Assembly: GCA_964356225.1 (NCBI GenBank) | Contig: CAYHGA010000001.1 | Location: forward strand, 104,220 to 168,219 | Length of the DNA: 64,000 nucleotides | Reading direction: 5' to 3' | Source: an uncultured Gammaproteobacteria bacterium | GTDB lineage: Bacteria > Patescibacteriota > Microgenomatia > CAZETR01 > Amesbacteraceae | Shown here: positions 2,512-61,134 of the stretch, piece after piece | How positions within the stretch are numbered: the stretch's first letter is position 1 | Layout: each line of letters begins with the position of its first letter | The notes under the pieces: generated by a model | The model's database searches: none | What the model was told of the DNA's origin: nothing | Seen by the model: the letters and a program-made list of their open reading frames with translations, nothing else | Translations under genes and position numbers: made by a program

Positions 2512-3711
2512 TAAAAACACCCCATTTAGATAAATAACTTTTGAAGACCCATTGGACAAATATGCAGTAACGGTGCGGCGGGTGGTAGAAATAATATCGG
2601 TGTGGACTACAGAATCATTAAATCCCCAGCTGGTCCATTGGGATTTGGTGATTTTGGCAGGATTGCCGGTATACGAATCCTGGTAGGCCCGACCCAGAGC
2701 AATGTGAGTATTGCCGAAGGGACCGGAAATATTTTCATCGAAAAGGGTCTCGGCCATGAATTTATTAATCCGGGATAATCTTTTGTCGGTTAAAGAAAAT
2801 TCGCCGATTTTATCGGCATTGGGATTTTTTAACATGGCTTGAAGAACAGAATAATTTTTGGTGGCTAAACTTTTGACGACCAAGCCGTTTTGAAAATCTA
2901 ATTTAATGCTTTCAATTAAGCTGCCATATCTATAGAGGGGTTGATCAAATTCAATATGACCTTGGGTCCCCCGCCAGTCGGGGGAAATAAAAACTTCGAA
3001 GCTGGGAATATTGCGGCCTGACCCGCCTAACCATTTACGGTTGGGGCCAATCTTGACCCAGAGATCAATTGTGTCTGCCTGGATATGCAGTTTGTCGATC
3101 TTTAAGGAATTTAATTTTTTGAGAATTTGGGAATTTTGGGCAAAGACCTCCTTCCACTTTTTAATAGGATCCTGTTCGTCCAGAAAGCAGGCTTTAATAA
3201 TTTGGTCCCAATACCCTTTTTGGGAGAGTCCAGCCTCTTTGGCCATGACGGGAGTGCCATAAAGGGCCAGCGTCCAGGTGTACTTTCCGGCATTTTCTTT
3301 AGTATCTAACCATTCGATGTATGGTTTGGCGGAGGCACTTTTGGACATGATTTTGGCGGGATCTATGCCTTCAAGTTCGTGTTTATTGGTTTCGGAAATG
3401 ATAGAAATGGAGTGGTCGATCTGGTCAGCCAGTCCTTTGAGGTATTTGCGGGGAAAAAATTTCAGTTGGTCTGACGTGGCGAGTTCGAAAAATTCTCGAG
3501 AAATATCGTCTGCTATATAATTTGAGATGACGTGGCCACCGGAACGGAGAATCTGATTACGGACTTCTATATATAGAGGTTTGGCGGATTCGGAAACATT
3601 CAGACGAATAACGTCACCCTTTTTGATGCCTTTTCCGGAATTAAGAGCGAAGTTGACCAGGACTTGGGCGTATTTTTCGAGAATGGCTTTCGGGGGCGTG
3701 AAGTTTGTCAT
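2506..3711 (-). CDS. M29 family aminopeptidase (AmpS/PepS-like)
   Basis: The N-terminus MTNFTPPKAILEKYAQVLVNFALNSGKGIKKGDVIRLNV resembles M29 aminopeptidase starts. Length is about 400 aa. Start set to the internal Met so the gene does not overlap the metG start. Confidence 0.65.
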   Translation of the reverse strand: MTNFTPPKAILEKYAQVLVNFALNSGKGIKKGDVIRLNVSESAKPLYIEVRNQILRSGGHVISNYIADDISREFFELATSDQLKFFPRKYLKGLADQIDHSISIISETNKHELEGIDPAKIMSKSASAKPYIEWLDTKENAGKYTWTLALYGTPVMAKEAGLSQKGYWDQIIKACFLDEQDPIKKWKEVFAQNSQILKKLNSLKIDKLHIQADTIDLWVKIGPNRKWLGGSGRNIPSFEVFISPDWRGTQGHIEFDQPLYRYGSLIESIKLDFQNGLVVKSLATKNYSVLQAMLKNPNADKIGEFSLTDKRLSRINKFMAETLFDENISGPFGNTHIALGRAYQDSYTGNPAKITKSQWTSWGFNDSVVHTDIISTTRRTVTAYLSNGSSKVIYLNGVFLL

Positions 3712-3739: not shown

Positions 3740-5173
3740 ATGGACAAAAAGTTTTACATTACTGCAGCTATTCCGTATGTCAATGCTAAACCGCATATTG
3801 GGCACGTTCTGGAATTTGTGCAAACGGATACTGTTGCACGGTACCACAAATTGCTAGGTGAAGAAGTGCTGGCATTGTCCGGCGGGGATGAAAATGCCTT
3901 GAAAAATGTGCAGGCGGCGGAGAAGGCCGGGGAGCCAATTAAAGAATTTATTGACAGAAATACGCAGCTTTTTTATGAACTGACAAAAAAACTGAATGTG
4001 CAATTTAACGTGTGGCAAAAAGGCAGCGACCAAAAAACACATTTTCCTTCCAGCCAGAAATTATGGAAACTGTGCAAGAAAGATATCTATACGAAAAAAT
4101 ATAAAGGCTTGTACTGCGTAGGGTGTGAGACGTTTTATGAGAAAGAAGAATTAAATGAAAACGGAGAATGTTTTGAGCATCCCGGGAAAAAATTAGACGA
4201 GGTGGAAGAAGAAAATTATTTTTTCCGGTTGTCCAAGTATCAAGAACAATTAATGAAACTTATTGAATCCGGTGGGTTGGAAATTGTTCCTGAAGAGAGA
4301 AAAAACGAAGTATTGGCTTTTTTGAAAGGCGGTTTGCAAGATATCAGCATTTCCAGATCAAACGAAAGGGCTAAAAATTGGGGAGTGCCAGTGCCGGGAG
4401 ACGACAAGCAGAGAATTTATGTGTGGTTTGATGCTTTAAATATTTACCAGTCGGGAATTGGGTTTGGGTGGGATGAAGAAAAATATACTAAATGGTGGCC
4501 GGCAGATGTACATGTGATAGGTAAAGGAATTATCCGCTTCCACGCAGTATACTGGCCTGCGTTTTTACTTTCCGCCGGACTGAAGCTACCCAAAAAAATC
4601 TTCGTACATGGATATTACACAGTGAATGGACAAAAAATGTCCAAAACACTGGGAAACGTGTATGATCCCCTACCGCTTTTAGAGAAATACGGAGCCGACC
4701 CACTGCGATATTATTGCCTAGCCAAAACTCCGCCGTTTACGGACGGGGATTTTTCAGAAGAAAAATTCATCGAGGCTTATAATTCGGATCTTGCTAATGG
4801 ATTAGGAAATTTGGTGGCCAGGGTGGCGAAACTTGCGGAGCGGGTGAATATTCAATATTCAATATTCAATATCCAATATCCAGATAATAGATTTAAAGAT
4901 ATTAAAAACTTGTTGGATAAATTTAGATTTGATGAAGCGTTAAAAACGATTTGGGGATGGATTTCTGAATTGGATCAACAAATTGAGAAAGACCAGCCGT
5001 GGAAATTGGAGGGGAAGGATCTGGAACAAATTCTGGCGGGCTACCGGGAGAATATTTTGAAAATTGCGACTGCATTACAACCATTCTTACCCCAGACGGC
5101 TGAAAAAGTGCTTAAACAGTTTTCGGGGCCGGAGATTAAAAGTGAATCTCCTTTGTTTCCGAGAATCAAATGA
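3740..5173 (+). CDS. metG: methionyl-tRNA synthetase (short form)
   Basis: Class I HIGH motif (AKPHIGHVLEF) and KMSKS motif (KMSKTLGNV). Overall MetRS architecture including the CxxC zinc knuckle region (CVGCETF). Confidence 0.85.
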   Translation: MDKKFYITAAIPYVNAKPHIGHVLEFVQTDTVARYHKLLGEEVLALSGGDENALKNVQAAEKAGEPIKEFIDRNTQLFYELTKKLNVQFNVWQKGSDQKTHFPSSQKLWKLCKKDIYTKKYKGLYCVGCETFYEKEELNENGECFEHPGKKLDEVEEENYFFRLSKYQEQLMKLIESGGLEIVPEERKNEVLAFLKGGLQDISISRSNERAKNWGVPVPGDDKQRIYVWFDALNIYQSGIGFGWDEEKYTKWWPADVHVIGKGIIRFHAVYWPAFLLSAGLKLPKKIFVHGYYTVNGQKMSKTLGNVYDPLPLLEKYGADPLRYYCLAKTPPFTDGDFSEEKFIEAYNSDLANGLGNLVARVAKLAERVNIQYSIFNIQYPDNRFKDIKNLLDKFRFDEALKTIWGWISELDQQIEKDQPWKLEGKDLEQILAGYRENILKIATALQPFLPQTAEKVLKQFSGPEIKSESPLFPRIK

Positions 5174-5940
5174 TTGACGCCCACTGCCATTTGCAGGAGT
5201 TTGAGGATATACAGGCAATCGTAAGCAGCGCAGGCAAGGCAGGCATTGCGGGCATGATTTGTTGTGGAGCTGATCTGGAAAGTTCAAAAAAAGCTATCGA
5301 AATAGCTGAAAAGTTTGAGCAAGTCTATGCGACTGTTGGATGTCATCCTGACCAAATTTTTAATTTTAAATTTTTAATATCGAGCCCCCTCTCGCGCTTC
5401 GCGAATAATCAATTTTTAAAATTGGCAAAATCTAAAAAAGTCGTGGCTATTGGAGAGTGCGGGCTGGATTTTTTACCAGAGACAAGAAAAGAAGAGAAAA
5501 GTGCTCAGAGAGAATTGCTGAAATTTAATATTGATTTGGCGAAAAAGGCGAGGTTGCCATTAGTGGTGCATTGTAGGAACGCCTTCGCAGATATATTTGA
5601 GATAGTGGATTATGACAAGGTGCAAATGCATTGCTTTACGGGGAATATGGAACAAATGCAGGAATGTGTGAGGCGGGGATGGTATATAAGTTTCGGGGGA
5701 ATTGTGACTTTTAAAAGCAGTCAGGAATTACGAGAGGTGGCGAAGGCGGTGCCGGAGGATAAATTGCTGGTTGAGACAGACGCGCCATATTTGGCTCCAG
5801 AGCCGGTGCGGGGTTCGCGAAACATGCCTACAAATGTTAAAATTGTGGCGGCCAAAATAGCTGAAGTGCGAGGTACTTCAATTAATCAAATTGAAGAAGT
5901 TACTACCGAGAACGCCCGGTTATTTTTTGGATTGAGATGA
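5170..5940 (+). CDS. tatD: TatD family hydrolase
   Basis: MIDAHCHL start, AIGECGLD motif, and HCRNA / ETDAPYL motifs, all typical of TatD DNases. The start overlaps the metG stop (ATGA). Confidence 0.8.
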   Translation: MIDAHCHLQEFEDIQAIVSSAGKAGIAGMICCGADLESSKKAIEIAEKFEQVYATVGCHPDQIFNFKFLISSPLSRFANNQFLKLAKSKKVVAIGECGLDFLPETRKEEKSAQRELLKFNIDLAKKARLPLVVHCRNAFADIFEIVDYDKVQMHCFTGNMEQMQECVRRGWYISFGGIVTFKSSQELREVAKAVPEDKLLVETDAPYLAPEPVRGSRNMPTNVKIVAAKIAEVRGTSINQIEEVTTENARLFFGLR

Positions 5941-17712: not shown

Positions 17713-18507
17713 TTATTGTTTGTGGGGGTGAAAGAAGGCGAAGCCGGGACCGACTTTTTCAGAGGTCATTTTGGGTTTCATATACAGATACTGTGGGACA
17801 AAAAATAAGAAATTGATTGGCCACAGTATCCAATTTTTAATTTTTAATTTTAAATTTTTAATCAAATTCAAATTTTTAATTTTTAGACTTTCCCGATATG
17901 CTACCGGCAAATATTTTTTGACCCAGGAGTTTTGAGTTAAAAATTGATTATGAATATCGGAGCGATCCCATAAGACTTTGGCTTGAAGAATTTCGTGAGC
18001 AATATACAAATTTTTAGTTTTTAATTTTAAGTTTTCAGTGTCTAGCCAGAGATTGTCGCAAATTTGGTTATTAGTTAATAGTTCATAGTTCATAGTAGAC
18101 GGATGACGCCGGATACCCAGAAGTTTTAAATAAATTACTACGAAAAAGCGGGTGAGCCAGAGAGTGTGGGGATAAGTCACTATCATTAAATCTATATCGT
18201 CGTTTTCCGGGCAATTGTTCATGGTCAAGGCACCGGTGACAAAAATTGCTGCGATAGGGGGAAATTTTTTTAGTTGCTCTCCTACTCTCTTGGCAATTAG
18301 CCATTTCTTCCTACTGAACCGCTCTCGTTGCTTACGGGTTTTCCAATTTTTAATTTTTAATTTACAATTTTTAATCAAATTCAAAATCTTAATTTTCGAA
18401 AACGAGGTGCTGTGTTGCCAATACCAGAGCTCGTCTGCGGTTAGAGGATAATCGTATTTGTCAAAATAGGAGAGGGTTTTACTTAGAGATGGGGGAAGCG
18501 AGGCCAT
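17713..18507 (-). CDS. nucleotidyltransferase-domain protein
   Basis: A GS...DIDLMIV minimal nucleotidyltransferase signature (VTGALTMNNCPENDDIDLMIV). Several TTTTTAA heptamer micro-repeats lie in frame, encoding K/I/N-rich stretches. Confidence 0.4.
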   Translation of the reverse strand: MASLPPSLSKTLSYFDKYDYPLTADELWYWQHSTSFSKIKILNLIKNCKLKIKNWKTRKQRERFSRKKWLIAKRVGEQLKKFPPIAAIFVTGALTMNNCPENDDIDLMIVTYPHTLWLTRFFVVIYLKLLGIRRHPSTMNYELLTNNQICDNLWLDTENLKLKTKNLYIAHEILQAKVLWDRSDIHNQFLTQNSWVKKYLPVAYRESLKIKNLNLIKNLKLKIKNWILWPINFLFFVPQYLYMKPKMTSEKVGPGFAFFHPHKQ

Positions 18508-27526: not shown

Positions 27527-27775
27527 ATGACTAATTCTAATTATTGATTTTCAAATCATATTTATCAATGACCCTTTGCGGAAAACCTATAGCTAATTTG
27601 GGAGTATAACAATGCGGAGTACATACAATTGTTCACGTGCGTGGTTGATAATTTATTTATGCTTGGTTGTTTGTACTTTTTGTATGTACATAAAAAACGT
27701 GAAACCTCCGCACGCGCCGAATTTTAAATTTTTAATTTTTAATTTTAAGTTCTGTCCTGTAGTTTTGAAGAGAAG

Positions 27776-28183
27776 TTATGAGATTTTATCAAGAGTCTGG
27801 TTGACAAGATGGTCGGCGGCGGAATTTTGCTCCCGAGGTATGTATGTAAAATTTTTAATTTTTAATTTATAATTTTTAATTAATTCTTTAATTTCTAAAT
27901 TTTTAATTTTTAGACCTGGGTCTTTGATTTTGAATAGGCCTTTAAGCTGGCTAACAACAAGCTGAGAATCTAGATAATAGTTCACGGTTATTGGTTCATG
28001 GTTCATGGCAGACAACCACTTAAGAGACTCGATGACGGCTTGGTATTCGGCCTGGTTGTTGGTAGCAATTCCTAAATAAAAACCTTGTTGGTGAATTAGG
28101 CGGCCAGAATCATCTGTGGCTACAAAGGCGCAAGCGGCTGGTCCGGGATTACCTCTGGCTCCCCCATCGGTATGAATAAGCAT
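27776..28183 (-). CDS. rnhA: ribonuclease H (type 1, RNase HI-like)
   Basis: IHTDGGARGNPGPAACAFV start, NNQAEYQAVIESL motif, and a C-terminal YIPREQNSAADHL motif. Confidence 0.75.
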   Translation of the reverse strand: MLIHTDGGARGNPGPAACAFVATDDSGRLIHQQGFYLGIATNNQAEYQAVIESLKWLSAMNHEPITVNYYLDSQLVVSQLKGLFKIKDPGLKIKNLEIKELIKNYKLKIKNFTYIPREQNSAADHLVNQTLDKIS

Positions 28184-29321
28184 AGGCCATAAGTATAACT
28201 AATAATAAAATGTTTTGGTGAAGAGTGAGCCAGTAGTGATCGGCGGCGCCGGTGATCGCGATCACGGCGGCCGCAGTTATTAGTTCATAGTTCATAGTTC
28301 GTAGCCATTTTTTACTATGAACCAATAACCAATAACCAATAACTGCCGTGGCGGGAAGGCCGAGCTCGGATGCGATGAGAAGATAAATATTATGAACGGG
28401 CTGATATAAATAGTTATTAGTTATTAGTTCATGGTTCATAGTAGCCGGAATAAAGTTGCCTAGACCGACTCCCAGAATGGGATACTTTTGAACTAATACT
28501 AGTGAATTATGAATTAACGAGAAACGACCGGGGAGAGATTCTATAGAACCTGTGATAGAAACTAGAAAATAGATACTGGAAAACAGGAGGAGCAAACCAG
28601 TGACAATTTTTAATTTTAAGTTTTTAATATCGACTTCGTCGCGCTTCGCGAGTAATAAAATCCAAATGCCTAAAATTAAAATTTCCAAAACGATGGCTGT
28701 GCGGGAGAAAGTAAGCGGGATCGTTAAAAAGGCGGCGAGAAGGGCTGGAGTGATCCGGCGATTTAATGAATAAAGTATTAAGCCAGCGACCAACAAGAAG
28801 CCGGCCAGGGCGTTGGGGTGGGGGGATGTAGCATAGGGGCGCATAAGCAAGTGACCAAAAAAGGAAATTTTGGCGATGAGAAGAGTGGAGACGGAGAGAG
28901 GTCGTTCTCCGAGCCAATACCAAAATCCACCTACAGATCTCTGAAGAATAAATTGCCACCAGGCGAGGATGCTTGTCCACAAAGTGGACAGCGCAAGTGC
29001 ATAGTTCATAGTTCGTCGTTCATAGTAGCTGATCAAATATTTAAAGAGCCAGAAGTATTCGAGGACACGGAGCCACTTATAGATAGTTAATAAAGGAAAC
29101 GAAGAGATTAAGAGATTAAGGACGACGAAGATGATTACCGGAAGAGGGACGCGGACGCGGAGACGAGAAGTAAGAAATAATCCAATGATAATTAGGTCGG
29201 TGAGATAAAGAGTGGGGGAGAGATAGTCGACGCGAATGCCGTTAATAAGTGACCAGGACGGCCAAAAATGAAAAGCGATTTGGGAGGGGAGAAGTAGAAA
29301 TAATAATATTAAAAAGATCAC
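28149..29321 (-). CDS. O-antigen ligase/polymerase-like polytopic membrane protein
   Basis: About 10-12 TM helices with a large periplasmic loop and Wzy_C-like organisation. The call is by topology only. Confidence 0.45.
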   Translation of the reverse strand: MIFLILLFLLLPSQIAFHFWPSWSLINGIRVDYLSPTLYLTDLIIIGLFLTSRLRVRVPLPVIIFVVLNLLISSFPLLTIYKWLRVLEYFWLFKYLISYYERRTMNYALALSTLWTSILAWWQFILQRSVGGFWYWLGERPLSVSTLLIAKISFFGHLLMRPYATSPHPNALAGFLLVAGLILYSLNRRITPALLAAFLTIPLTFSRTAIVLEILILGIWILLLAKRDEVDIKNLKLKIVTGLLLLFSSIYFLVSITGSIESLPGRFSLIHNSLVLVQKYPILGVGLGNFIPATMNHELITNNYLYQPVHNIYLLIASELGLPATAVIGYWLLVHSKKWLRTMNYELITAAAVIAITGAADHYWLTLHQNILLLVILMAYAYSYRWGSQR

Positions 29322-34210: not shown

Positions 34211-35317
34211 ATGCATGCAACTGTTTTACAGCAAGATCTAAATAAAGGGCTGGGGATAACCGGACGGGTGGTGGCCTCCCGAGGGCAAATGCCGATTTTG
34301 GCAAACATTCTGATTGAGGCGACTAAAGACGGAATAACGCTGGCGGCGACGAATTTAGAAATTGGTTTGAGGGTGGAGGTGGGAGGAAAAGTAATGGAAC
34401 CGGGGTCGATAACTATTCCGGGGAGGAACTTGGGAGAACTAGTGGGATCTCTTTCAGGGGAGAGTTTAGATTTACAAACCGAGGGGGAAAAATTAAAAAT
34501 TAAGTCTGGAAAGTCAGCGGGGGTGTTGGTGGGGATTGCTGCGAGCGAATTCCCGCCAATGCCGAGAGCGGGACAGGGGGGAAAAGGAGAGGGAGTAAAA
34601 ATTGACAAGAACATAATATTGGAAATAGCGAGCCAGGTGGCGTTTGCGGCGGCCGTGGACGAGAGCAGGCCGGTGCTTACTGGTTGTCGGTTTTCGGTGG
34701 TCGGTGATCGGTTAGTGGTGGTGGCGACGGATGGATTTCGCTTATCGCGAAAAATCCTCAATGCTCAATCCTCAATGCTCAAAGATAATTTGATTTTGCC
34801 GGCGAGGACGATACTGGAGCTGGCGAGAGTAGTAGGGGACGCGGGGGAAGTAACAATGGAGAACGTAAAAGAAAATAACCAGACGATTTTTAGCTGTGAT
34901 GGTGTGCAGTTAATATCAAGGGTGTTGGAAGGAAATTTTCCGGAAGTAGATAAAATAATTCCCCAGAGTTTTAAAACAGAGATTGGAGTGGACAGAGAAG
35001 AGCTACGGTCCTCTCTAAGAGTGGCGGGGATTTTTGCCAGAGAAAACAGCAATATTGTCAAGTTCATCGTTCATGGTTCACGGTTCATAGTAAAAGCTCA
35101 GGCGGGGCAGGTGGGGGAAAACGAGAGTGAGATGGAGATTGAAAAGGAGGGGGAGGACGGGGAGATTGCGTTTAACTACAAATTTGTGCAGGATTTTTTG
35201 GAGAGTGTAACAGAAGAAAGAGTAAAACTAAAAATAAACGACAGTTTATCACCGGGGGTGTGGGCGGGAGAAAAGGACAAGAGTTTGATTCATTTGATAA
35301 TGCCGGTGAGAGTTTAA
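34211..35317 (+). CDS. dnaN: DNA polymerase III beta sliding clamp
   Basis: MHATVLQQDLNKGL...MPILANILIEA start. Three-domain length of 368 aa. Confidence 0.9.
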   Translation: MHATVLQQDLNKGLGITGRVVASRGQMPILANILIEATKDGITLAATNLEIGLRVEVGGKVMEPGSITIPGRNLGELVGSLSGESLDLQTEGEKLKIKSGKSAGVLVGIAASEFPPMPRAGQGGKGEGVKIDKNIILEIASQVAFAAAVDESRPVLTGCRFSVVGDRLVVVATDGFRLSRKILNAQSSMLKDNLILPARTILELARVVGDAGEVTMENVKENNQTIFSCDGVQLISRVLEGNFPEVDKIIPQSFKTEIGVDREELRSSLRVAGIFARENSNIVKFIVHGSRFIVKAQAGQVGENESEMEIEKEGEDGEIAFNYKFVQDFLESVTEERVKLKINDSLSPGVWAGEKDKSLIHLIMPVRV

Positions 35318-38048: not shown

Positions 38049-40424
38049 CTAGGGGGTGGTTTCAGGAACTAGACGAACTTTCTCTTCTTTTTGAGCACTG
38101 AGTATTTCTGAAGGCTTGGTGGTAATGAGCTTGTGTTCGTCGGGAGAGGCGACGACGCGGATGGCGACGTGATTATTGCCGGCAAAAAACAGACCTTCGC
38201 CCACCTCGCTACTTAATAGTAAATGCTTCTCCCCCTCGGAAAGATAGAAGACCTGGGCGACTTTGTCGATGGCGGCGGGGGATTGTTTCATGAGAACTTG
38301 GATACTGGAATTGGTGACGATGGCCTTGCCGTAATCCGTGCTCAAGAAATCTTCCACGTCCTGGGTAATAGTGGTCAGCCCCAGGAAATACTTGCGGGCG
38401 CGTTTAGCAATGCCGTATAAAAAGGCGGCGGAGTCGGGGGAGCGCATCAGATACCAGGCTTCATCGACAATTAGCAGTCTCTTTTTTAAATCCCGGCGCA
38501 TTTTGGTCCAAATATAATCCAAAATAATAAAAATGGCGATGGGCTTGAGGGAGTCTTCCAAATCGCGGACGGAAAAAACAGTGAAAGGATTTTTGAGATT
38601 GACGTTGCTGGGCTGGTCGATGATGCCGCGGAAGCTGCCTTTGACGAATTTTTCAATGCGGTCGGCCAGGGCCCCGGCCTGGGGTTCTTCCATACCCACC
38701 AGGGCTTTGTAGAGGTCCTCCATGAGGGGTGGAGGGAGTTTTTGGGTTTGGGGATCTGGGGTGATGCCTTTCATTTTGTAGGTGGCAACCAGGGCCCGGT
38801 CCAAAATAGCTTCTTCGGCGGGAGACAAGACGCCCATAATGACCTTAAACAGGGAATGCAGAGAGAGAATTTTTAAGTTTAGTTCGTTTTCATCGGAAGT
38901 GTCGGTGAGGGCAGAGAGGTCGAAGGGGTTGAGGCGGCAGGGAGAATTGAAAGAAAAGTTGATATATTCGCCGCCGACGGCGTCGGAAAGAGTTTTGTAT
39001 TCGTTTTCAGGGTCGATGATAATAATTTCGGTGCCAAACATGAGGGAGCGGAGGATTTCCAGCTTGACCAGGTAGCTTTTTCCGGCGCCAGCTTTGGCAA
39101 AGACAACGGTGTTGGCGTTTTCTAAACTGAACCTGTCAAAAATTACTAAACTGCCGTTGTGCTCGTTGAGTCCATACAGCACGCCTTCGTTGCTGGTGAG
39201 TTCAGAGGAGGTAAAAGGAAAAGTAGTAGCCAGAGAAGTGGTGTCCATGTTGCGGGTGACCATGAGGTGGTCAATACAGGCAGGGAGAGTGGTTTTGAAA
39301 CCGTCGGCCTGTTGGAGAAGGGCGGGGGCGGTGGTGATAAGCAAAGAACCTAAGGTGCTGGAAACCTGTTTGGTGACCTGATTAAGTTCGCTCTCGGATT
39401 TGGCAGGAATGGTGACATACAACCCAAACTGAAAGAAGCGTTCGGCACCTTTGACCAATTGGTCTTGGAGGGAGAGGGCGTCTTCGAGTTTGGCTTGGGT
39501 GCTGGGGTCGACCACCCGGCCACGCTGCAAGTCGGTGGAGATTTCGGCCTCCATTTCGGCAATTTTCCTGCGCAGATCATCGAGAGTGGATTTGCTTTCT
39601 ACGGGGTAGACGAACATAGAGATATTTAAAGAGTGGTCAAAATTAATGAGGGGAGCCAGCCAGTTGGCGGTGACAAAACGGGGATAGCCGGCCACAAAAA
39701 GGGAGCGGAAATACCAGTCGTCGATTTTGAGGGTGTTGAAATCAACTGTAATTACTTGAGGAGCGATGGAGGAGGCGGCTGTGACTTTGGTTTCAACCTG
39801 GGAGCGGTGATAGGAGCTAAAGAAAAACTGAATAAGTTCGGGGGAAGTAAGCTGGCGGGCGCGGAGGCCGATGCGAGCCAACAATCTGGCAAGATGATCA
39901 CGCTTAGGAGAGAGAGCCAGGGCGGCGCGGGCCAGGATTTCGGCTTGGGGTTTGGGCGGAGTTGGGGACTTTTTATTGATAGAAATCAGGGATTTGAAAT
40001 TAGAGGAGATACCAAGCTCCAGAGAAGAGAAGGGAATGGCCACGTAGAACTTTTTGTCCAGGACGTTGCCCTGGCGGACGACGGTTTTAATAAAGTCGCG
40101 ATATTTGGCAAGCTGGTCATGTAAAAGAGAGTTGGCAGTTTTTCCCAGCTGCAGATCCAGGAGGGAAAGATAATCAGAAATATCCTTTTGTTTGGAGGAA
40201 ACGACGATTTGAATGGAAAAAGTGAGAGAGTTAAGAAGCTGGGCGTAGGCATAGATGGTGGCGTCCTGCTCTTTTTCGGACAATAAGCCGAAGTTAAGGG
40301 CGGAAACTTCTAACACTAAGCAAGCGGAGCCGTCTTTGAGAACGACTAAATCTTGAGCGATATCCTGGACGTCAAGATGGTCTTGGGTTGTGGATTTGAT
40401 AATGTGATTAGTTAGTTGGTTCAT
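38049..40424 (-). CDS. VirB4/TrbE/CagE-family type IV secretion ATPase
   Basis: 791 aa. Walker A VVFAKAGAGKSYLV and Walker B LLIVDEAWYLM. The overall VirB4 architecture has a long N-terminal domain. Confidence 0.8.
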   Translation of the reverse strand: MNQLTNHIIKSTTQDHLDVQDIAQDLVVLKDGSACLVLEVSALNFGLLSEKEQDATIYAYAQLLNSLTFSIQIVVSSKQKDISDYLSLLDLQLGKTANSLLHDQLAKYRDFIKTVVRQGNVLDKKFYVAIPFSSLELGISSNFKSLISINKKSPTPPKPQAEILARAALALSPKRDHLARLLARIGLRARQLTSPELIQFFFSSYHRSQVETKVTAASSIAPQVITVDFNTLKIDDWYFRSLFVAGYPRFVTANWLAPLINFDHSLNISMFVYPVESKSTLDDLRRKIAEMEAEISTDLQRGRVVDPSTQAKLEDALSLQDQLVKGAERFFQFGLYVTIPAKSESELNQVTKQVSSTLGSLLITTAPALLQQADGFKTTLPACIDHLMVTRNMDTTSLATTFPFTSSELTSNEGVLYGLNEHNGSLVIFDRFSLENANTVVFAKAGAGKSYLVKLEILRSLMFGTEIIIIDPENEYKTLSDAVGGEYINFSFNSPCRLNPFDLSALTDTSDENELNLKILSLHSLFKVIMGVLSPAEEAILDRALVATYKMKGITPDPQTQKLPPPLMEDLYKALVGMEEPQAGALADRIEKFVKGSFRGIIDQPSNVNLKNPFTVFSVRDLEDSLKPIAIFIILDYIWTKMRRDLKKRLLIVDEAWYLMRSPDSAAFLYGIAKRARKYFLGLTTITQDVEDFLSTDYGKAIVTNSSIQVLMKQSPAAIDKVAQVFYLSEGEKHLLLSSEVGEGLFFAGNNHVAIRVVASPDEHKLITTKPSEILSAQKEEKVRLVPETTP

Positions 40425-40783
40425 GGTTCATTGTTCATGGTTAACGATTTCTTTAGGGCACTAATCATTTTGGATAGGGATTCTAGTTTAGTGTAATAGA
40501 TGCTTAAGTTTTGAGGGTTAATGTATCCTTGGCTTTTTGCAATTGTTAATATGGCGACACATTCATAACATGAACCACGGGACAGGTCCAAGAAATGACG
40601 AAAGTCGTTGATTTTTCTACTGCTTCCTTCGGCGATGTTTAGAGCAATAGATACAACAGCTCTTCTTAATTGGTCGGTTAGGCCATAGGTTTCTTGTTTG
40701 GGCCATGAATTTGTAATGCTGTAAATCTCTGAAGCAATGCTTAATGCTTCTTGATAGACACGCAATTCTTCAAATTTGAACAT
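40421..40783 (-). CDS. four-helix-bundle protein (23S rRNA IVS-protein family)
   Basis: 120 aa. The sequence FEELRVYQEALSIASEIY...YGLTDQLRRAVVSIALNIAEGSSR...FLDLSRGSCYECVAIL matches the family consensus. An ATGA overlap couples it to virB4. Confidence 0.7.
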   Translation of the reverse strand: MFKFEELRVYQEALSIASEIYSITNSWPKQETYGLTDQLRRAVVSIALNIAEGSSRKINDFRHFLDLSRGSCYECVAILTIAKSQGYINPQNLSIYYTKLESLSKMISALKKSLTMNNEP

Positions 40784-41656: not shown

Positions 41657-41899
41657 TCAGGATTTTAACCCTAAGTTTTTGATAGTTGTTGTAAGTAACT
41701 TGATGACTTCTTTTTTACTGTTTCTTCCGTATCCTTCGGCGATATTTGCACCAATTGAACTAGAGGATCTTAATATTTGTTTGTATAAAACTTCAGACGT
41801 TTTGTTACCAGGAAGATGGCTAAAAAGAAGAACTATTTCTTTTGTCCCCTGTTTGGCTTTCTGAAAATAGATGAGATTATGATGATCAAAGTAACTCAT
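41657..41899 (-). pseudogene. C-terminally truncated second four-helix-bundle protein (remnant)
   Basis: EVLYKQILRSSSSIGANIAEGYGRNSKKEVIKLL matches the family core, but the ORF stops about 35 aa early. Confidence 0.35.
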
Positions 41900-41986
41900 A
41901 GGCAGGCTAAATCTATACTGAGTACTTCTCTCTGAGCACTGAGTACTAGTCAATAGTACCCCGTGAAGTCTTTTGTGCAAGTTGCG

Positions 41987-42004
41987 GGCTTTTTCACACA
42001 AAAG
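41987..42004. repeat. 18-bp direct repeat GGCTTTTTCACACAAAAG, copy 1, upstream of mntA
   Basis: An identical 18-mer recurs at 42884-42901 immediately after the hepT stop. Both copies lie upstream of a TTGTAG...TATAAT-like promoter. Confidence 0.55.
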
Positions 42005-42031
42005 TTTTGTAGCCGATGGTATAATTTTATT

Positions 42032-42463
42032 ATGGTTAAGTTGGACATCAATAGAAAAGGGCTGGAAAAAATTTGTCGCAAATACGGCGTGATTGCGGTG
42101 TATGTGCATGGGTCGCAAGTTAAGGGTTATGCCGCACCGGATTCAGATACTGACGTGGCGGTGGTAGTGAGAGATAGAAATAAGTTGGAACGAGGACATT
42201 TCGGTAGCTATAACGTTGTAAATGAAATGGAAGGAGTGTTGAGTATAAAAAACCCCGACGTGAGAGTAGTTGACAAAGACAGTTCGCCAGTGTTTCTATT
42301 CGAGATTATTTCTGATGGAAAAATCGTTTATCAGGAGAACGAAAGTTCTAGGCTTGGATTTGAAGAGAGAGTTTTGCGAACTTATTATGATGCTGAATAT
42401 ATGAGAGAAGTTTATGGAGATTATTTATACAGAGATATTAAAGCGAGGGCCTATGCCAATTAA
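42032..42463 (+). CDS. mntA: MntA-type minimal nucleotidyltransferase (antitoxin of a HepT/MntA module)
   Basis: The NTase signature is YVHGSQVKGYAAPDSDTDVAVVV. It is followed by an overlapping HEPN gene. Confidence 0.6.
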   Translation: MVKLDINRKGLEKICRKYGVIAVYVHGSQVKGYAAPDSDTDVAVVVRDRNKLERGHFGSYNVVNEMEGVLSIKNPDVRVVDKDSSPVFLFEIISDGKIVYQENESSRLGFEERVLRTYYDAEYMREVYGDYLYRDIKARAYAN

Positions 42464-42884
42464 AGAAGAGGTGGTTCGGGAAAAATTAATCAAAATCCGA
42501 AAAATGGTAGACAGGATTGGAAACATGGATTTTACGGAAGAGGAATTTGACGAAGACGTAGATGTGCAAGATTTACTGGTTTTTCGTCTAGAGCAAGCGG
42601 TGGAACAGGCGATTGATATTGCTACTCATCTGGTTTCTGCCAAAGGTCTACCAAGGCCAGGAACTTTAAAAGAATTATTTGGAGCGTTGGGTAAAGCCAA
42701 AATGTTACCTGAAGAAATCACTAAGGCCATGACTAAAGCCGTAGGTTTCAGGAATATTGCGGTACATGAATACGACGATGTTAAATTTGATATTAAAAAG
42801 GTCTACAGAGATTATAAAGATGATGTCCGGGACTTGAAGAAATTTTGTGCAGAAGTGGTGAGGCTTTTGGAAAAAGAGAGGTAG
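42453..42884 (+). CDS. hepT: HepT-type HEPN toxin (DUF86)
   Basis: The C-terminal R-x4-6-H HEPN motif is FRNIAVHEY. The start overlaps the mntA end. About 143 aa. Confidence 0.6.
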   Translation: MPIKEEVVREKLIKIRKMVDRIGNMDFTEEEFDEDVDVQDLLVFRLEQAVEQAIDIATHLVSAKGLPRPGTLKELFGALGKAKMLPEEITKAMTKAVGFRNIAVHEYDDVKFDIKKVYRDYKDDVRDLKKFCAEVVRLLEKER

Positions 42885-51704: not shown

Positions 51705-52118
51705 CTATTGGGTAGTAATTGAGGGAATTACGAGGTTTAGAATACTGATGCCGAATATGCTATCGATAAGGAACGCAATGGCGTAGGTAGAAAAGACAAT
51801 CGCAAGGCCCAATAGGGCGGCCGTAATACGCTTGCGAGCTTTTTCGGTCCCTTCTTTGTCGCCGCCGGCCATAATCCATTGGACTCCTCCTATTAAGAGA
51901 AAGAAGAAGGCGACTAAACCTGCGCCCATTAGCACAAGGTTAATGCTGAGGCGAAGGATGTTTTGGGCATTAAACGTTCCCTCAGTGCCGATTGTCTGCC
52001 CTATTCCAGACTTAGGGATTAAGTCTATATTTTCTGCAAGGGCTGTGGTTGGTGATACGGTGAGCATTGTTGCTAGAGCAGAACCGTATTTGATGGCGTT
52101 TTTAATTTTGTTTGTCAA
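51705..52118 (-). CDS. pilin-like small 2-TM protein, paralog 7
   Basis: 137 aa. Contains MAGGDKEGTEKARKRITAALLGLAIVFSTYAI. Confidence 0.5.
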   Translation of the reverse strand: MTNKIKNAIKYGSALATMLTVSPTTALAENIDLIPKSGIGQTIGTEGTFNAQNILRLSINLVLMGAGLVAFFFLLIGGVQWIMAGGDKEGTEKARKRITAALLGLAIVFSTYAIAFLIDSIFGISILNLVIPSITTQ

Positions 52119-52133
52119 AGATGCTCACCTCCT

Positions 52134-52472
52134 TTACTGGATGACAGGAATTGTAAATTTAGTAATAGAAACACCAAATAATGTTTCAACTAAGTAGATT
52201 ATAGCAAAGATGGAGAAGACAATTGCAAGACCTATTAAAGCAGCGGTGAGACGTTTGGAGGCGGATTGGGTGCGTTCTTTGTCTCCTCCGGCGGTGATAT
52301 ATTCTATTCCGCCCCAGAGGAGCATAAAAAAGAAAATAATGCCGGCGGCTCCCAAAGCTAGAGTAATAAAATTGGTGAGAAAGAGCTGGAGGATGTCGAT
52401 GCCGGAACTATAACCAACGCTAGTATTGATTGCGGGGTTTTTAATGACGAAACCTTGGGCAAGTATTCTCAT
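52134..52472 (-). CDS. pilin-like small 2-TM protein, paralog 6
   Basis: 112 aa. Contains TAGGDKERTQSASKRLTAALIGLAIVFSIFAI. Confidence 0.5.
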   Translation of the reverse strand: MRILAQGFVIKNPAINTSVGYSSGIDILQLFLTNFITLALGAAGIIFFFMLLWGGIEYITAGGDKERTQSASKRLTAALIGLAIVFSIFAIIYLVETLFGVSITKFTIPVIQ

Positions 52473-52909
52473 CTTCGTGGAGTGCCACCGCCTCCAGTAC
52501 TACCGGGAATGTTACAAGTAAAGGTTGTGGTTCCGATGGTATTGGAAAAAAGGTCTCCAAATGGACAAAGGATGTTTATTCCGAAGATTAATCCTATGAT
52601 TCCAATTAGGGCGTAGGAAAATACGACTACAAACAGTCCTAAAATAGCATTCACGATTCTTTTTTGGGCGTTTTGCAGGGCTTGTTTTTCTCCTCCACCC
52701 GCTAACCACTGAAAGGCTCCGGCAAATATTTGAATGATAAACCAGACTCCGGCCGCAACAGTGAGAACACCGATTCCCGTGGAAAGAGTGGAGACAAAAA
52801 GGGCAAAGGGCTCTGTTCCTCCTTTGGTCAGGGTCTTGGTAAAATCTCCCAGGGGCCCCACGCCCTCAAAAGTTCCTAAAGGAGCGTCGGCTAAGAATTT
52901 CATGGGCAT
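52469..52909 (-). CDS. pilin-like small 2-TM protein, paralog 5
   Basis: 146 aa. Contains LAGGGEKQALQNAQKRIVNAILGLFVVVFSYAL. Confidence 0.5.
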   Translation of the reverse strand: MPMKFLADAPLGTFEGVGPLGDFTKTLTKGGTEPFALFVSTLSTGIGVLTVAAGVWFIIQIFAGAFQWLAGGGEKQALQNAQKRIVNAILGLFVVVFSYALIGIIGLIFGINILCPFGDLFSNTIGTTTFTCNIPGSTGGGGTPRR

Positions 52910-53256
52910 GATCCGGGCCCGTAAATAACGGGGGAGATAATGGCGGTGGCATCGCCAAAAATTAAATAGCCAAAGATTCCTGCAAGAACAAATGAGCCGG
53001 CGACAAAAGTCAGACCGAGGAGAGATTGGGTGAACTTGCCAAAAGCCTTACCCATGGCTTTGGCATCGTCACCGGCGGACATAAATCCGTAACCGGCGGC
53101 AATGAAATTCCAAAAAGCATATAGGCCGGCCAGGACGATGACCGTTTTAAGCAGGCCATTGCTTAGAGTAATCAATCCAGATCCACATTCACTACCTTTT
53201 AGGGGTGAATTTAATGTTGCAAACGGGTCATAAATTTTACCGAATGGGGAAATCAT
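52900..53256 (-). CDS. pilin-like small 2-TM protein, paralog 4
   Basis: 118 aa. Contains MSAGDDAKAMGKAFGKFTQSLLGLTFVAGSFVL. Confidence 0.5.
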   Translation of the reverse strand: MISPFGKIYDPFATLNSPLKGSECGSGLITLSNGLLKTVIVLAGLYAFWNFIAAGYGFMSAGDDAKAMGKAFGKFTQSLLGLTFVAGSFVLAGIFGYLIFGDATAIISPVIYGPGSCP

Positions 53257-53597
53257 AGTCTTATGTTAAAAAAGTCGATGCCGGTAATGACCCCGACTGC
53301 TTGGAGTATAAAATAAGCGGAGATGACAAGCAAGAATCCGATAACGGAAAATGTGATAGTATTTTTTGCTTGAGCTGCGGCTTTGGCGTCATCTCTGCCG
53401 GCTGACGAAATCATGGAAAATCCGGCGCCAAGCAGTAAAAACAAAAATATGACTCCGGCGCCAATGAGAGCGTTGGGGAGAAGGGAAGTGATAAGAGTAC
53501 CGAGATTGGCGTTGGTCCCGCCCGCAATGCCTGCGGCTTGAGGGGAATTTGTAAAAAACTGTTCATTAATGTCTACTTGGGATAATAATTTGGTCAT
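53253..53597 (-). CDS. pilin-like small 2-TM protein, paralog 3
   Basis: 114 aa. Contains SSAGRDDAKAAAQAKNTITFSVIGFLLVISAYFI. Confidence 0.5.
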   Translation of the reverse strand: MTKLLSQVDINEQFFTNSPQAAGIAGGTNANLGTLITSLLPNALIGAGVIFLFLLLGAGFSMISSAGRDDAKAAAQAKNTITFSVIGFLLVISAYFILQAVGVITGIDFFNIRL

Positions 53598-53899
53598 AAG
53601 ATTTCGATGCCAAAGATGGTTTGTATAACCTGAATTATAAAGTAAGCGGAAATGACAACTAATAAACCAATAAGAGCATTGACAAGTTCTTTAGAGGCGC
53701 TCTGGATTTTGTTTTGATCACCGGCGTTGGTGAGGTAGGTGTATCCGGCGGAAATAAGACGAACGAAGAAAAATAAACCGGAGAGGGCGATGGCAAAAGT
53801 AAGAATGCGGGCTACATAATATCCAAGAAACACATCTGGGGTAAGAAGATTTAGGGGACCAGGTTGGTTAATGCCAGTGATTTGGGCGAGTTGTTTCAT
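53594..53899 (-). CDS. pilin-like small 2-TM protein, paralog 2
   Basis: 101 aa. Contains TNAGDQNKIQSASKELVNALIGLLVVISAYFI. Confidence 0.5.
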   Translation of the reverse strand: MKQLAQITGINQPGPLNLLTPDVFLGYYVARILTFAIALSGLFFFVRLISAGYTYLTNAGDQNKIQSASKELVNALIGLLVVISAYFIIQVIQTIFGIEIL

Positions 53900-60795: not shown

Positions 60796-60799
60796 ATTG

Positions 60800-61134
60800 T
60801 GGAGGTGGCGGGAATTGAACCCGCGTCCGAAAAAGTTCTTCTAAAGCATCTACAAGCATAGTCTCGGAAAAGCGCCGGACCGCTTGGATTAGTTGATCTT
60901 TCTCCGATGTTGGTTAATCCTAACCTATCGGAGGCATCTCGATTTAATTACACCCTAGCCGGATTCTCGAGATAAATCCGGAAAGAATGCTCACTTTAGC
61001 TTAAGCAAAAGCGTACGCGAAGCGAGAAGTGTCGTATTGATTGACACTTAAGTTTCGAACCTGTTTTACGAGCCTGGTTCAAGCTCGGCTTGCAGCTTTT
61101 CAAAGTACATTTCCCGTCGAATCCTGTCACCCCC
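60800..61134 (-). ncRNA. ssrA: tmRNA (ssrA)
   Basis: The minus-strand 5' end GGGGGUGACAGGAUUCGACGGGAAA matches the tmRNA 5' consensus. The 3' end is a T-arm plus acceptor (CGCGGGTTCAATTCCCGCCACCTCCA). A G3·U70 wobble is kept in the acceptor. The internal ORF ...NQYDTSRFAYAFA* is a plausible tag peptide. Confidence 0.75.

What the first reader, a model, noticed from the sequence alone, without database searches (positions are those of the whole stretch)
5359..5410. Dispersed ~50-bp element shared by tatD (plus strand) and the waaL-like gene (minus strand), in frame in both
aatttttaattttaaatttttaatatcgagccccctctcgcgcttcgcgaataat lies at 5359-5410, inside tatD. The near-copy caatttttaattttaagtttttaatatcgacttcgtcgcgcttcgcgagtaat lies at 28597-28650, inside the O-antigen-ligase-like gene.

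Both copies are in the same plus-strand orientation although the host genes are on opposite strands.

In the membrane protein it encodes a charged LLAKRDEVDIKNLKLKI patch in an otherwise hydrophobic protein, which looks like an insertion into a loop.

It behaves like a miniature inverted-repeat-less mobile element that preserves the reading frame.
Basis: seen in the sequence. Interest (0 to 1): 0.5.

Follow-up and report, generated by a model that had tools for sequence, protein, structure and literature searches.

The report
Tiny hairpin insert inside heptamer repeats
The shared ~50-bp stretch is real, but it is two things nested together: a 7-base tandem repeat, of which this ultra-small groundwater bacterium (Candidatus Amesbacteria) has dozens even inside essential genes, and a 21-26-base palindromic mini-insert sitting in that repeat, much like the STRR/SDR repeats known from Nostoc-type cyanobacteria.

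Summary
Observation confirmed. Copies lie at 5355-5409 (TatD, + gene) and 28605-28656 (Wzy_C/O-antigen-ligase-like, - gene), same orientation, about 85% identical, none expected by chance. Each is read in the only stop-free frame of its strand.

The stretch is composite.
1. An (AATTTTT)x3.4 array. It is one of 28-39 period-7 arrays in the window (0 in shuffles, 0-3 for other periods). They lie in MetRS, LeuRS, DnaA, DnaN, SmpB and other genes, belong to about five recurring unit families, and are polar on the G-rich strand.
2. A nested 23-26-nt GC-rich palindrome, ATCGAS-loop-STCGCGCTTCGCGA.

Ortholog alignments show three states at both host sites: no repeat, array only, and array plus palindrome (+7-8 aa). 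Six more canonical palindrome copies and one variant occur in other Amesbacteria, at TatD and three ligase sites. All have the same polarity and are translated in four frames (SRFA, AKRD, REAR, SRSA). The window's ligase copy is identical to another species' TatD copy, not to its own orthologues.

Best reading: a DNA-level, copy-pasted mini-element nested in heptamer repeats and kept in frame by selection. The mechanism is inferred; no transposase is in the window. Closest known are cyanobacterial STRR and SDR elements, and Rickettsia RPEs for in-frame residence. I rate it a new variant of a known kind.

The parts
5170..5940 (+). Host gene 1: TatD-family hydrolase (256 aa)
   Evidence: Pfam TatD_DNase 1.5e-78, residues 2-254 on profile positions 1-253 of 253. 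Orthologues are Candidatus Amesbacteria proteins.
5355..5378 (+). Copy 1, heptamer array AATTTTT AATTTTA AATTTTT AAT (3.4 units). It encodes IFNFKFL.
   Evidence: TRF period 7, 3.4 copies; own period scan. Orthologues L036 (AATTTTC)x4 and L019 (AATTTCC)x3 carry an array at the same TatD site without the palindrome.
5379..5404 (+). Copy 1, mini-palindrome ATCGAG-CCCCCT-CTCGCGCTTCGCGA (26 nt). It gives a net +8 codons relative to the array-only orthologue L036 and encodes SSPLSRFA.
   Evidence: Stem B is CGAG/CTCG. Stem A is TCGCG/CGCGA at 5392-5404.
5405..5425 (+). Copy 1, right-hand AT-rich flank (ATAATCAATTTTTAAAATTGG), the continuation of the array context
28149..29321 (-). Host gene 2: Wzy_C / O-antigen-ligase-like membrane protein (390 aa). 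It carries at least 5 further heptamer arrays: 28275-28304, 28314-28343, 28407-28439, 28556-28582 and 28996-29021.
   Evidence: Pfam Wzy_C 6.2e-14; arrays; orthologue alignment A2.
28605..28628 (+). Copy 2, heptamer array AATTTTT AATTTTA AGTTTTT AAT. On the gene's strand it encodes IKNLKLKI.
   Evidence: Orthologue L069 has CAATTTTTAATTTTAAATTTTTAATTTTC at the same site without the palindrome. L068 and L067 have neither array nor palindrome.
28629..28651 (+). Copy 2, mini-palindrome ATCGAC-TTC-GTCGCGCTTCGCGA (23 nt). It gives a net +7 codons relative to L069 and encodes LAKRDEVD on the gene's strand.
   Evidence: It is identical over 23 nt to the element in the TatD gene of another species (L001).
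28652..28670 (+). Copy 2, right flank GTAATAAAATCCAAATGCC, shared with orthologous flanks in L065 and L069
4845..4882 (+). Example of the same repeat class nearby: (AATATTC)x4.7 array inside MetRS, encoding NIQYSIFNIQY. Orthologues carry other units at the same site.
17827..17885 (+). Other AATTTTT-type arrays of the window, all with the same polarity. This one, plus 18340-18375, 27720-27748, 27844-27912 and 61846-61879.
   Evidence: (families D2 and D3).

Best explanation
The 50-bp 'element' is a nested pair of DNA-level repeats in a Candidatus Amesbacteria (CPR/Patescibacteria) chromosome.

Layer 1 is a short tandem array of a 7-nt unit, here AATTTTT. Such arrays are a lineage-wide dispersed class. 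A handful of unit families recur at many loci, inside and between genes, always with the same polarity on the G-rich chromosomal strand. At a given orthologous site the array persists while its unit sequence turns over as a block (concerted evolution).

Layer 2 is a 21-26-nt GC-rich mini-insert, ATCGAS-loop-STCGCGCTTCGCGA, made of two overlapping palindromes. It has been copied into AATTTTT/AAATTTG-type arrays just after ..TTAAY, always in the same orientation relative to the array and the G-rich strand.

Neither layer works through its peptide or through a known RNA family. Copies inside genes are the ones that landed in permissive loops and in the single stop-free frame. Selection, not the element, keeps the frame.

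Inferred mechanism, not shown:
- Arrays arise, expand and homogenise by replication slippage of heptamers.
- The mini-palindrome spreads by a replication-coupled, strand-specific copy-paste. This is most simply template switching or short-patch conversion between arrays that share about 25 nt of homology, with the hairpin promoting the switch.
- An unidentified trans-acting ssDNA (HUH-type) enzyme is the alternative.
For: Shown:
1. Period-7 arrays number 28 in the window, against 0 in shuffles and 0-3 for periods 4-13. TRF lists about 45 period-7 rows. In 403 kb of non-redundant Amesbacteria loci there are 81 period-7 arrays against at most 13 for any other period, and 1 in 53 kb of unrelated control DNA.
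2. Arrays sit inside verified housekeeping genes: MetRS, TatD, LeuRS, DnaA, DnaN, TsaD, SmpB, Dus and VirB4-like.
3. A few unit families recur: AATTTTT, AGTTCAT, CTCAATG/AGTGCTC and AATGTCA/TCAAAAG.
4. Polarity on the G-rich strand: AATTTTT 7:0, AATACTC 5:0, CTCA 11 against TGAG 0, TCA 33 against TGA 9. This is opposite to the background, where TGA 1249 exceeds TCA 625 and TGAG 285 exceeds CTCA 88. Genes lie on both strands.
5. Three states occur at orthologous sites.
   - TatD: 16-18 aa baseline, 21 aa array-only (L036, L019, L007, L034), 29-33 aa array plus palindrome (window, L001).
   - Ligase site A: empty (L068, L067), array-only (L069), filled (window, L065, L064).
6. The same site carries different units in different lineages: the MetRS site, the TatD site and the DnaN loop.
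7. There are eight canonical palindrome copies plus one compensated variant (TCCCGCTTCGCGGGA), at TatD and three ligase sites in six genomes. All have the same polarity and all lie in AT-rich arrays.
8. Stem B covaries: CGAG/CTCG in 5 copies, CGAC/GTCG in 3, none broken.
9. The element is translated in four different frames: SRFA, AKRD, REAR, SRSA.
10. The window's ligase copy equals the L001 TatD copy 23/23, but differs from the orthologous L065 and L064 ligase copies. TatD relatives closer to the window (68-73% identity) lack the palindrome.
11. Only one frame per strand is open, and a perfect array is closed in all six frames.
Against: - Only two copies occur in 64 kb and nine in about 650 kb of partly redundant related DNA. 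High copy number is therefore not shown.
- Seven of the nine lie in one gene family, the ligase. Vertical inheritance with repeated loss could explain part of the pattern.
- The one scan of GTDB species genomes used an over-fitted pattern and returned only chance hits in unrelated bacteria. The genome-wide and taxon-wide distribution is unknown.
- No target-site duplication, no excision or polymorphic junction, and no mobilising enzyme were found (Pfam of 57 window ORFs).
- The right flanks of the two window copies share little homology, which weakens a simple two-sided gene-conversion model.
- The covariation rests on one or two events.
- Predicted folding energy is not better than shuffles (z = -0.75 to +0.82).
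Confidence: 0.6

Rival explanations
1. The mini-palindrome is a REP/REPIN- or IS200/IS605-type (PATE-like) non-autonomous element. A Y1/HUH single-strand transposase (RAYT or TnpA) encoded elsewhere in the genome mobilises it and inserts it 3' of a short target (..TTAAY) on one replication strand.
For: - The element is short and GC-rich, with two adjacent or overlapping hairpins.
- It has a strict single polarity on the G-rich strand irrespective of gene direction. That is expected for ssDNA transposition coupled to replication (established knowledge of IS608 and ISDra2).
- The left flank is conserved as TTAAT, TTAAC, TAAAC or GAAAC.
- There is no target-site duplication, as for IS200/IS605.
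Against: - No Y1_Tnp, RAYT or any transposase was found among 57 ORFs of the window.
- There is no GTAG or CGTC tag at a consistent end. CGTC occurs only in the CGAC subtype.
- The copies found are intragenic, whereas REPs are extragenic.
- Observed copy number is low.
- The rest of the genome was not available to search.
Confidence: 0.15
2. There is no mobility. Both arrays and palindromes arose locally and are inherited vertically. The similarity between TatD and ligase copies is convergence: slippage-prone heptamers filtered by stop-codon avoidance, plus a GC-rich palindrome favoured by some local mutational process, with many independent losses in relatives.
For: - The T,A,T unit order shared by the two copies is exactly the variant needed to open a reading frame on either strand. 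Array similarity can therefore be convergent.
- Arrays at orthologous sites persist across deep divergence.
- Three filled ligase-site-A orthologues could descend from one insertion.
- Heptamer over-representation has been ascribed to polymerase slippage (PMC4692102).
Against: - An identical 13-mer, and in one case an identical 23-mer, at non-homologous sites and in genomes whose proteins are only about 50-70% identical cannot plausibly arise de novo.
- Orthologous copies are less alike than non-orthologous ones.
- Orthologous copies are read in different frames, so coding constraint cannot conserve the 13-mer.
- The recurrence of about five unit families at dozens of loci is far from random heptamer choice.
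Confidence: 0.15
3. The element is functional for the host, as a selected peptide module, a cis-regulatory RNA/DNA signal, or a protein-binding or methylation site (it contains TCGA, CGCG and TCGCGA).
For: - The 13-mer is invariant in 7 of 8 canonical copies, and stem changes are compensated.
- The strict strand polarity is reminiscent of polar chromosomal motifs such as Chi or KOPS (established knowledge).
Against: - It is translated in four different frames into unrelated peptides.
- It occurs in both orientations relative to transcription.
- There is no Rfam family, and folding is no better than shuffles.
- It is absent from most orthologues, which function without it.
- Two copies per 64 kb is too sparse for a polar chromosome-organising motif.
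Confidence: 0.07
4. Assembly or sequencing artefact: chimeric low-complexity joins.
For: AT-rich tandem repeats are error-prone in short-read assemblies.
Against: - The TatD copy was recovered at 99.96-100% identity in two other assemblies from different runs (L004, L005).
- Related copies occur in independent MAGs from other sites.
- Reading frames are intact.
Confidence: 0.01

Closest known systems
STRR (short tandemly repeated repetitive) heptanucleotide repeats of heterocyst-forming cyanobacteria (Calothrix, Nostoc, Anabaena). Basis: my own knowledge of Mazel et al. 1990 and Vioque 1997; context from PMC4692102.
   Same: - Tandem arrays of a 7-nt unit, a few copies long.
- A few unit families dispersed at many loci.
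- Length and unit variation between relatives at the same locus.
- Function and mechanism unknown.
- Known to sit in variable parts of functional genes (the RNase P RNA P12 helix; my knowledge).
   Different: - Host is a CPR bacterium with a roughly 1-Mb-class genome, not a cyanobacterium.
- Unit sequences differ.
- Here most arrays are inside protein-coding genes and translated, whereas heptamer SSRs in Nostoc and Xanthomonas are reported as over-represented in intergenic regions.
- There is a strong single-strand polarity tied to a chromosome-wide G-rich strand.
SDR (small dispersed repeat) elements of Nostoc punctiforme and relatives: Elhai et al. 2008, Genome Res 18:1484. The paper is not held. 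Details are from memory plus citing papers.
   Same: - Very small (21-27 nt) dispersed units.
- Hairpin-capable.
- Found nested inside other repeats (heptamer arrays, HIP1).
- Present or absent at orthologous sites.
- No associated enzyme known.
   Different: - No sequence relationship.
- Reported only in Nostocaceae.
- Copy number here is apparently low.
- Copies here are in-frame inside ORFs.
- The insertion point is after TTAAY in AT-rich arrays, not within GCG|ATCGC.
Rickettsia palindromic elements (RPE): Ogata et al. 2000; summary in PMC10969869.
   Same: Palindromic selfish repeats that reside in frame inside unrelated housekeeping ORFs of a reduced genome, adding a surface-compatible peptide.
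   Different: - RPEs are about 100-150 bp and each encodes a conserved peptide in one frame.
- Here the insert is 21-26 nt, is read in four frames, and is nested in heptamer arrays.
REP/REPIN-RAYT and IS200/IS605-derived palindromic mini-elements (PMC3116915, PMC3733652).
   Same: - 20-40-nt GC-rich imperfect palindromes.
- Non-autonomous.
- No target-site duplication.
- A strand-specific ssDNA mechanism would explain the polarity.
   Different: - REPs are extragenic, GTAG- or CGTC-tagged, and linked to a RAYT gene.
- None of these features was met or found here.

Membership tests
STRR-like heptamer tandem repeats | Tandem arrays with a 7-nt period, strongly over-represented relative to other periods | tested here: met
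   28 period-7 arrays against 0-3 for other periods and 0 in shuffles. 81 against at most 13 in 403 kb of related loci.
STRR-like heptamer tandem repeats | A few unit families dispersed at many loci of one genome | tested here: met
   AATTTTT at about 9 loci, AGTTCAT at about 12, CTCAATG/AGTGCTC at about 9, AATGTCA/TCAAAAG at 4.
STRR-like heptamer tandem repeats | Mainly intergenic location, in heterocystous cyanobacteria | tested here: not met
   Most arrays lie inside ORFs with Pfam-confirmed identity. The host is Candidatus Amesbacteria.
SDR (Elhai 2008) small dispersed repeats | Unit of about 21-27 nt, hairpin-capable, repeated at non-homologous sites | tested here: met
   Net insert is 21-24 nt, and the unit is 23-27 nt with two palindromes. 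It occurs at one TatD site and three ligase sites.
SDR (Elhai 2008) small dispersed repeats | Nested within heptamer arrays or other repeats, with filled and empty orthologous sites | tested here: met
   Array-only against array-plus-insert orthologues at TatD and at ligase site A.
SDR (Elhai 2008) small dispersed repeats | Sequence homology to SDR1-8; Nostocaceae host; tens to hundreds of copies per genome | not testable with these tools
   The paper and its sequences are not held. Only 2 copies per 64 kb were seen.
Rickettsia palindromic elements (RPE) | About 100-150-bp palindromic element encoding a conserved peptide, inserted in frame in ORFs | tested here: not met
   It resides in frame, but the unit is 21-26 nt and is read in four frames giving unrelated peptides.
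REP/REPIN with RAYT | Extragenic location; GTAG or CGTC terminal tag; RAYT (Y1 transposase) gene in the genome | tested here: not met
   All copies found are intragenic and carry no consistent tag. No Y1_Tnp among the window ORFs. The rest of the genome was not tested.
MITE (classical) | Terminal inverted repeats plus a target-site duplication; 50-500 bp | tested here: not met
   The unit is about 25 nt. Its palindromes are internal and overlapping, not terminal inverted repeats. No target-site duplication beyond AAY/RNAAT similarity.
Known structured RNA (Rfam) | Match to a curated covariance model | tested here: not met
   Only tmRNA and three tRNAs pass gathering thresholds in the window.

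The most novel reading that the evidence does not exclude
Amesbacteria, and perhaps other Microgenomates, possess an active strand-specific system that writes and rewrites short heptamer arrays into their chromosome, including into loops of essential proteins, and seeds them with mini-palindromes. The system would be coupled to the unusual one-directional strand asymmetry of these genomes: the skew does not flip at dnaA/dnaN. It would be a previously unrecognised enzymatic or replication-linked repeat-generating mechanism, shared in principle with the unexplained STRR/SDR system of Nostocales, and it would act as a built-in generator of loop diversity in otherwise minimal genomes.
Probability: 0.12. 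Interest if true: 0.8.

Novelty: new variant of a known kind. Interest (0 to 1): 0.55.

Why it matters
If this holds up, it extends the STRR/SDR phenomenon beyond its one known clade. Heptamer arrays with nested tiny mobile hairpins have been an unexplained curiosity of heterocystous cyanobacteria for more than 30 years. Finding them in CPR bacteria would give a second, independent system with very small genomes in which to look for the responsible machinery.

It also shows that essential proteins of minimal genomes (aminoacyl-tRNA synthetases, DnaA, DnaN, SmpB, TatD) tolerate translated simple-sequence DNA and are continually remodelled by it. That matters for three things:
- annotating CPR proteins;
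- alignment-based phylogenies, where loops are rewritten by DNA-level processes;
- strain typing.

The single-strand polarity of the repeats, opposite to the background G-over-C skew, provides a new marker for the odd replication and strand asymmetry already reported in Microgenomates (PMC7143001).

Tried and rejected
- Genome-wide distribution. It gave 7 hits, all in unrelated high-GC bacteria, about the chance expectation. The pattern was over-fitted to three examples, since later copies have GAAAT/AAAAT right flanks. The scan is uninformative, not negative.\n- A viral-contig scan with a looser pattern gave 3 chance hits in contigs of 63-69% GC. There is no evidence of a phage source.\n- RNA structure. 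Folding either strand of both copies gives only the trivial 5-bp hairpin, with energies no better than shuffles. Rfam found nothing at these sites.\n- Walking the source contig with end proteins returned only about 2 kb beyond the window.\n- A search of the window for any other GC-rich 5-bp-stem hairpin flanked by AT-rich sequence found only the two known copies, against 0 in block shuffles.\n- A mobilising enzyme was sought in the window. There is no transposase, HUH or RT domain in 57 ORFs.\n- The two 23S_rRNA_IVP (Avd-like) genes were considered as a hint of a DGR. I rejected this because no RT and no TR/VR pair is present.\n- A 99-nt difference between near-identical loci L001 and L009 beside inverted heptamer arrays was checked as possible array instability. 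It is a larger in-frame deletion, not a unit-number change.\n- The primary SDR paper (Elhai 2008) could not be read. The comparison rests on memory and on citing papers.\n- A formal covariation count was not run, because MAFFT places the variable loop inconsistently. Stems were read by eye.
Full report
**1. Observation**

The two quoted sequences are present. The best register is 5355-5409 against 28605-28656. The alignment reads:
- a 24-nt AT-only stretch, 23/24 identical;
- ATCGA, 5/5;
- a divergent 5-8-nt spacer with an indel;
- the 13-mer TCGCGCTTCGCGA, 13/13;
- R, then TAAT.

Neither half is expected by chance: 0.00 and 0.02 matches in dinucleotide shuffles. The window holds no third copy. 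A 2-mismatch hit at 61015 lies in the tmRNA gene.

Copy 1 is in a full-length TatD gene on the + strand. Copy 2 is in a Wzy_C / O-antigen-ligase-like gene on the - strand. Each copy has exactly one stop-free frame per strand, and that frame is the one in use. The TatD copy recurs at 99.96-100% identity in two independent assemblies, so it is not an artefact. TatD and ligase homologues place the window in Candidatus Amesbacteria, a CPR/Microgenomates groundwater lineage.

**2. The left half is one of many heptamer arrays**

- TRF lists about 45 period-7 rows in the window.
- My own scan finds 28 period-7 arrays, against 0 in shuffles and 0-3 for any other period from 4 to 13. Period 14, which is 2x7, is the exception.
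- In 403 kb of non-redundant related loci the count is 81 for period 7 against at most 13 for other periods. In 53 kb of unrelated bacteria it is 1.
- The arrays are 3-5 units long and fall into a few unit families: AATTTTT, AGTTCAT/GGTTCAT, CTCAATG/AGTGCTC/AGTACTC, and AATGTCA/AATGACA/TCAAAAG.
- Most lie inside genes whose identity Pfam confirms: MetRS, TatD, LeuRS, DnaA, DnaN, TsaD, TsaE, SmpB, Dus, a VirB4-like ATPase, SpoIID and RNase H.
- They are polar. On the G-rich strand AATTTTT occurs 7:0 against its complement, AATACTC 5:0, CTCA 11 against TGAG 0, and TCA 33 against TGA 9. The background has the opposite bias: TGA 1249 against TCA 625, TGAG 285 against CTCA 88.
- Genes are on both strands, and the G-over-C skew is positive in both + genes (0.31) and - genes (0.20). 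The polarity therefore belongs to the chromosome strand, not to transcription.

**3. Arrays at orthologous sites**

I obtained 51 TatD loci from metagenomes and extracted the segment between HP(E/D) and VVA(V/I)GECGL.
- Baseline orthologues have 16-18 aa there, e.g. SNDDPLEIENLINFPK.
- Array-only orthologues have 21 aa: (AATTTTC)x4 in L036, (AATTTCC)x3 in L019, (AAATCCC)x3 in L007, (AATCATG) in L034.
- The window has 29 aa and L001 has 33.

The MetRS array site shows the same pattern, with at least eight different units in different lineages, often without a length change. So does a DnaN loop. A second TatD hot spot has arrays in some lineages and a roughly 50-nt palindrome in others (L011, L040).

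Arrays therefore persist at a site while the unit is replaced as a block. The unit type does not follow host phylogeny. The window's AATTTTT resembles distant L036 and L019, whereas TatD relatives at 68-73% identity carry AAATTCT-type units.

**4. The right half is a nested mini-palindrome**

Relative to array-only orthologues the net insertion is:
- window TatD: +8 codons over L036;
- L001 TatD: +7 codons over L011;
- window ligase: +7 codons over L069.

Ligase site A shows all three states: empty in L068 and L067, array-only in L069, and filled in the window, L065 and L064.

Searching all fetched Amesbacteria DNA found eight canonical copies and one variant:
- window TatD and window ligase site A;
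- L001 TatD;
- L064 ligase site A, L064 ligase site B, and the variant TCCCGCTTCGCGGGA next to it;
- L065 ligase site A;
- L066 ligase site C;
- L067 ligase site B.

The consensus on the G-rich strand is ..TTAAY | ATCGAS - loop(3-6) - STCGCGCTTCGCGA(G) | RNAAT... The middle arm, CTCG(CG), can pair either with the upstream CGAG (stem B) or with the downstream (CG)CGAG (stem A). This is an a-a'-a arrangement of two overlapping palindromes. Stem B is CGAG/CTCG in five copies and CGAC/GTCG in three, and is never broken. The variant copy changes stem A on both sides, TCGCG/CGCGA to TCCCG(C)/(G)CGGGA.

All copies have the same orientation relative to the flanking arrays and the G-rich strand. The ligase loci have negative skew when the ligase is on +, matching the window. 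The copies lie in both orientations relative to the host genes.

**5. It acts at the DNA level, not through its peptide**

The 13-mer is translated as:
- SRFA in TatD of the window and L001;
- AKRD in the window ligase;
- REAR in P0122 (L065);
- SRSA in P0135 (L064), P0161 (L066) and P0130 (L067).

Orthologous ligase-site-A copies are read in three different frames, yet the 13-mer is conserved. Coding constraint cannot explain that conservation. Rfam finds no family, and folding is no better than shuffles.

**6. Evidence for copy-paste rather than pure descent**

- The 23-nt element of the window's ligase is identical to the element in the TatD of L001, a different gene in a genome whose TatD is 64% identical. 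Its own orthologues in L065 and L064 differ in the spacer and stem B.
- In TatD, only two non-sister lineages carry it among 34 aligned proteins and 51 loci.
- An identical 13-23-mer at non-homologous sites cannot arise de novo.

Some similarity of the array half of the two window copies can nevertheless be convergent. A perfect (AATTTTT)n has stops in all six frames, and the shared T,A,T unit order is the variant that opens one frame on each strand. L069 has the same T,A,T order without any palindrome.

**7. Mechanism (inferred)**

No transposase, HUH, integrase or RT domain occurs in 57 window ORFs. There is no target-site duplication.

I favour two processes:
- (a) slippage-driven birth, expansion and homogenisation of heptamer arrays. 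Heptamer over-representation in bacteria has been ascribed to the polymerase footprint (PMC4692102).
- (b) spread of the palindrome by a replication-coupled, strand-specific copy-paste between arrays that share about 25 nt. This would be template switching or short-patch conversion, with the hairpin favouring the switch.

A trans-acting ssDNA (Y1/HUH) enzyme encoded elsewhere is the main rival. It would equally explain the polarity and the conserved TTAAY left flank. Selection then removes every copy that is out of frame, contains a stop, or hits a structured part of a protein. That explains the in-frame, loop-located survivors.

**8. Comparison with known systems**

- Closest are the heptanucleotide STRR repeats and the 21-27-nt SDR mini-elements of Nostocales (Elhai 2008). 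The paper was not readable here. Citing papers confirm that SDR5 inserts precisely within another repeat and that SDRs are known only in Nostocaceae. The architecture matches: hairpin-capable mini-units nested in heptamer arrays, with filled and empty orthologous sites. The host, the sequences, the mostly intragenic translated location and the strict strand polarity differ.
- Rickettsia RPEs share in-frame residence in housekeeping ORFs. They are about 150 bp and encode a conserved peptide (PMC10969869).
- REP/RAYT criteria (extragenic location, GTAG/CGTC tag, RAYT gene) are not met.
- I found no paper describing heptamer arrays in CPR genomes.

**9. Verdict**

It misses that the unit is composite, that it is palindromic, and that selection rather than the element keeps the frame. 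I rate it a new variant of a known kind, with moderate interest (0.55). The main gaps are genome-wide copy number and the mobilising mechanism.

Noticed in passing
window 1-64000; dnaA 32694-34055 (+), dnaN 34211-35317 (+): GC skew is strongly positive (+0.09 to +0.43 per 2 kb) across the whole window and does not change sign at the dnaA-dnaN region. It is positive in both + genes (0.31) and - genes (0.20). This resembles the one-directional skew reported for other Microgenomates (PMC7143001).
   Followed up: partly
window 28275-28343 (inside the ligase gene); also L001 495-594: Pairs of heptamer arrays in opposite orientation, (AGTTCAT)n facing (ATGAACC/AACCAAT)n, form 30-37-nt inverted repeats (I4, I5 and I9). 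In L001 such a pair in a UvrD-like helicase gene lies next to a 99-nt in-frame indel relative to the 99.8%-identical locus L009.
   Followed up: partly
L011 about 3520-3590 and L040 about 150-210 (TatD, between HCRN and QMHCF): A second TatD hot spot carries heptamer arrays in some lineages: L001 and L007 with CTCAATG units, L017 with CTAAGTG units. In others it carries a different, roughly 50-nt GC-rich palindrome encoding ..LHLVRSADRPRNNP.. or ..HPSRSADRKGNDP... This is probably another mini-insert family.
   Followed up: no
window 35062-35087 (dnaN): The array GTTCATC GTTCATG GTTCACG GTTCA encodes KFIVHGSRFIV. This peptide is conserved in 3 of 4 Amesbacteria DnaN orthologues. A heptamer array here coincides with a conserved protein segment rather than a variable loop.
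   Followed up: no
window 17713-18507 (-): A 264-aa ORF without a Pfam match contains at least five arrays, giving KLKIKNW, MNYELLTNN and ENLKLKTKN motifs. It also holds a 55-nt direct repeat 513 nt apart: 17829-17883 and 18342-18396, 93% identical.
   Followed up: no
window 40421-40783 (-) and 41657-42118 (-): Two 23S_rRNA_IVP (Avd-like four-helix-bundle) genes flank a PrgI-like gene next to a VirB4/TraC-like ATPase (38049-40424). Several T4SS-pilin genes lie at 51705-54639. This is a Patescibacteria-type T4SS cluster. A MNT/HepT toxin-antitoxin pair is at 41963-42884. No reverse transcriptase is nearby.
   Followed up: no
window 60797-61134 (-): The tmRNA gene (161 bits) lies directly downstream of smpB (60352-60795, +). 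smpB itself carries an (AATTCAA)x4.4 array at 60486-60516.
   Followed up: no
L067 1-2112: The VirB4/TraC-like gene of a related Amesbacteria genome (GW2011_GWA1_47_20) carries an intein with a LAGLIDADG domain, according to precomputed Pfam hits. The window's orthologue (38049-40424) shows no intein domain.
   Followed up: no
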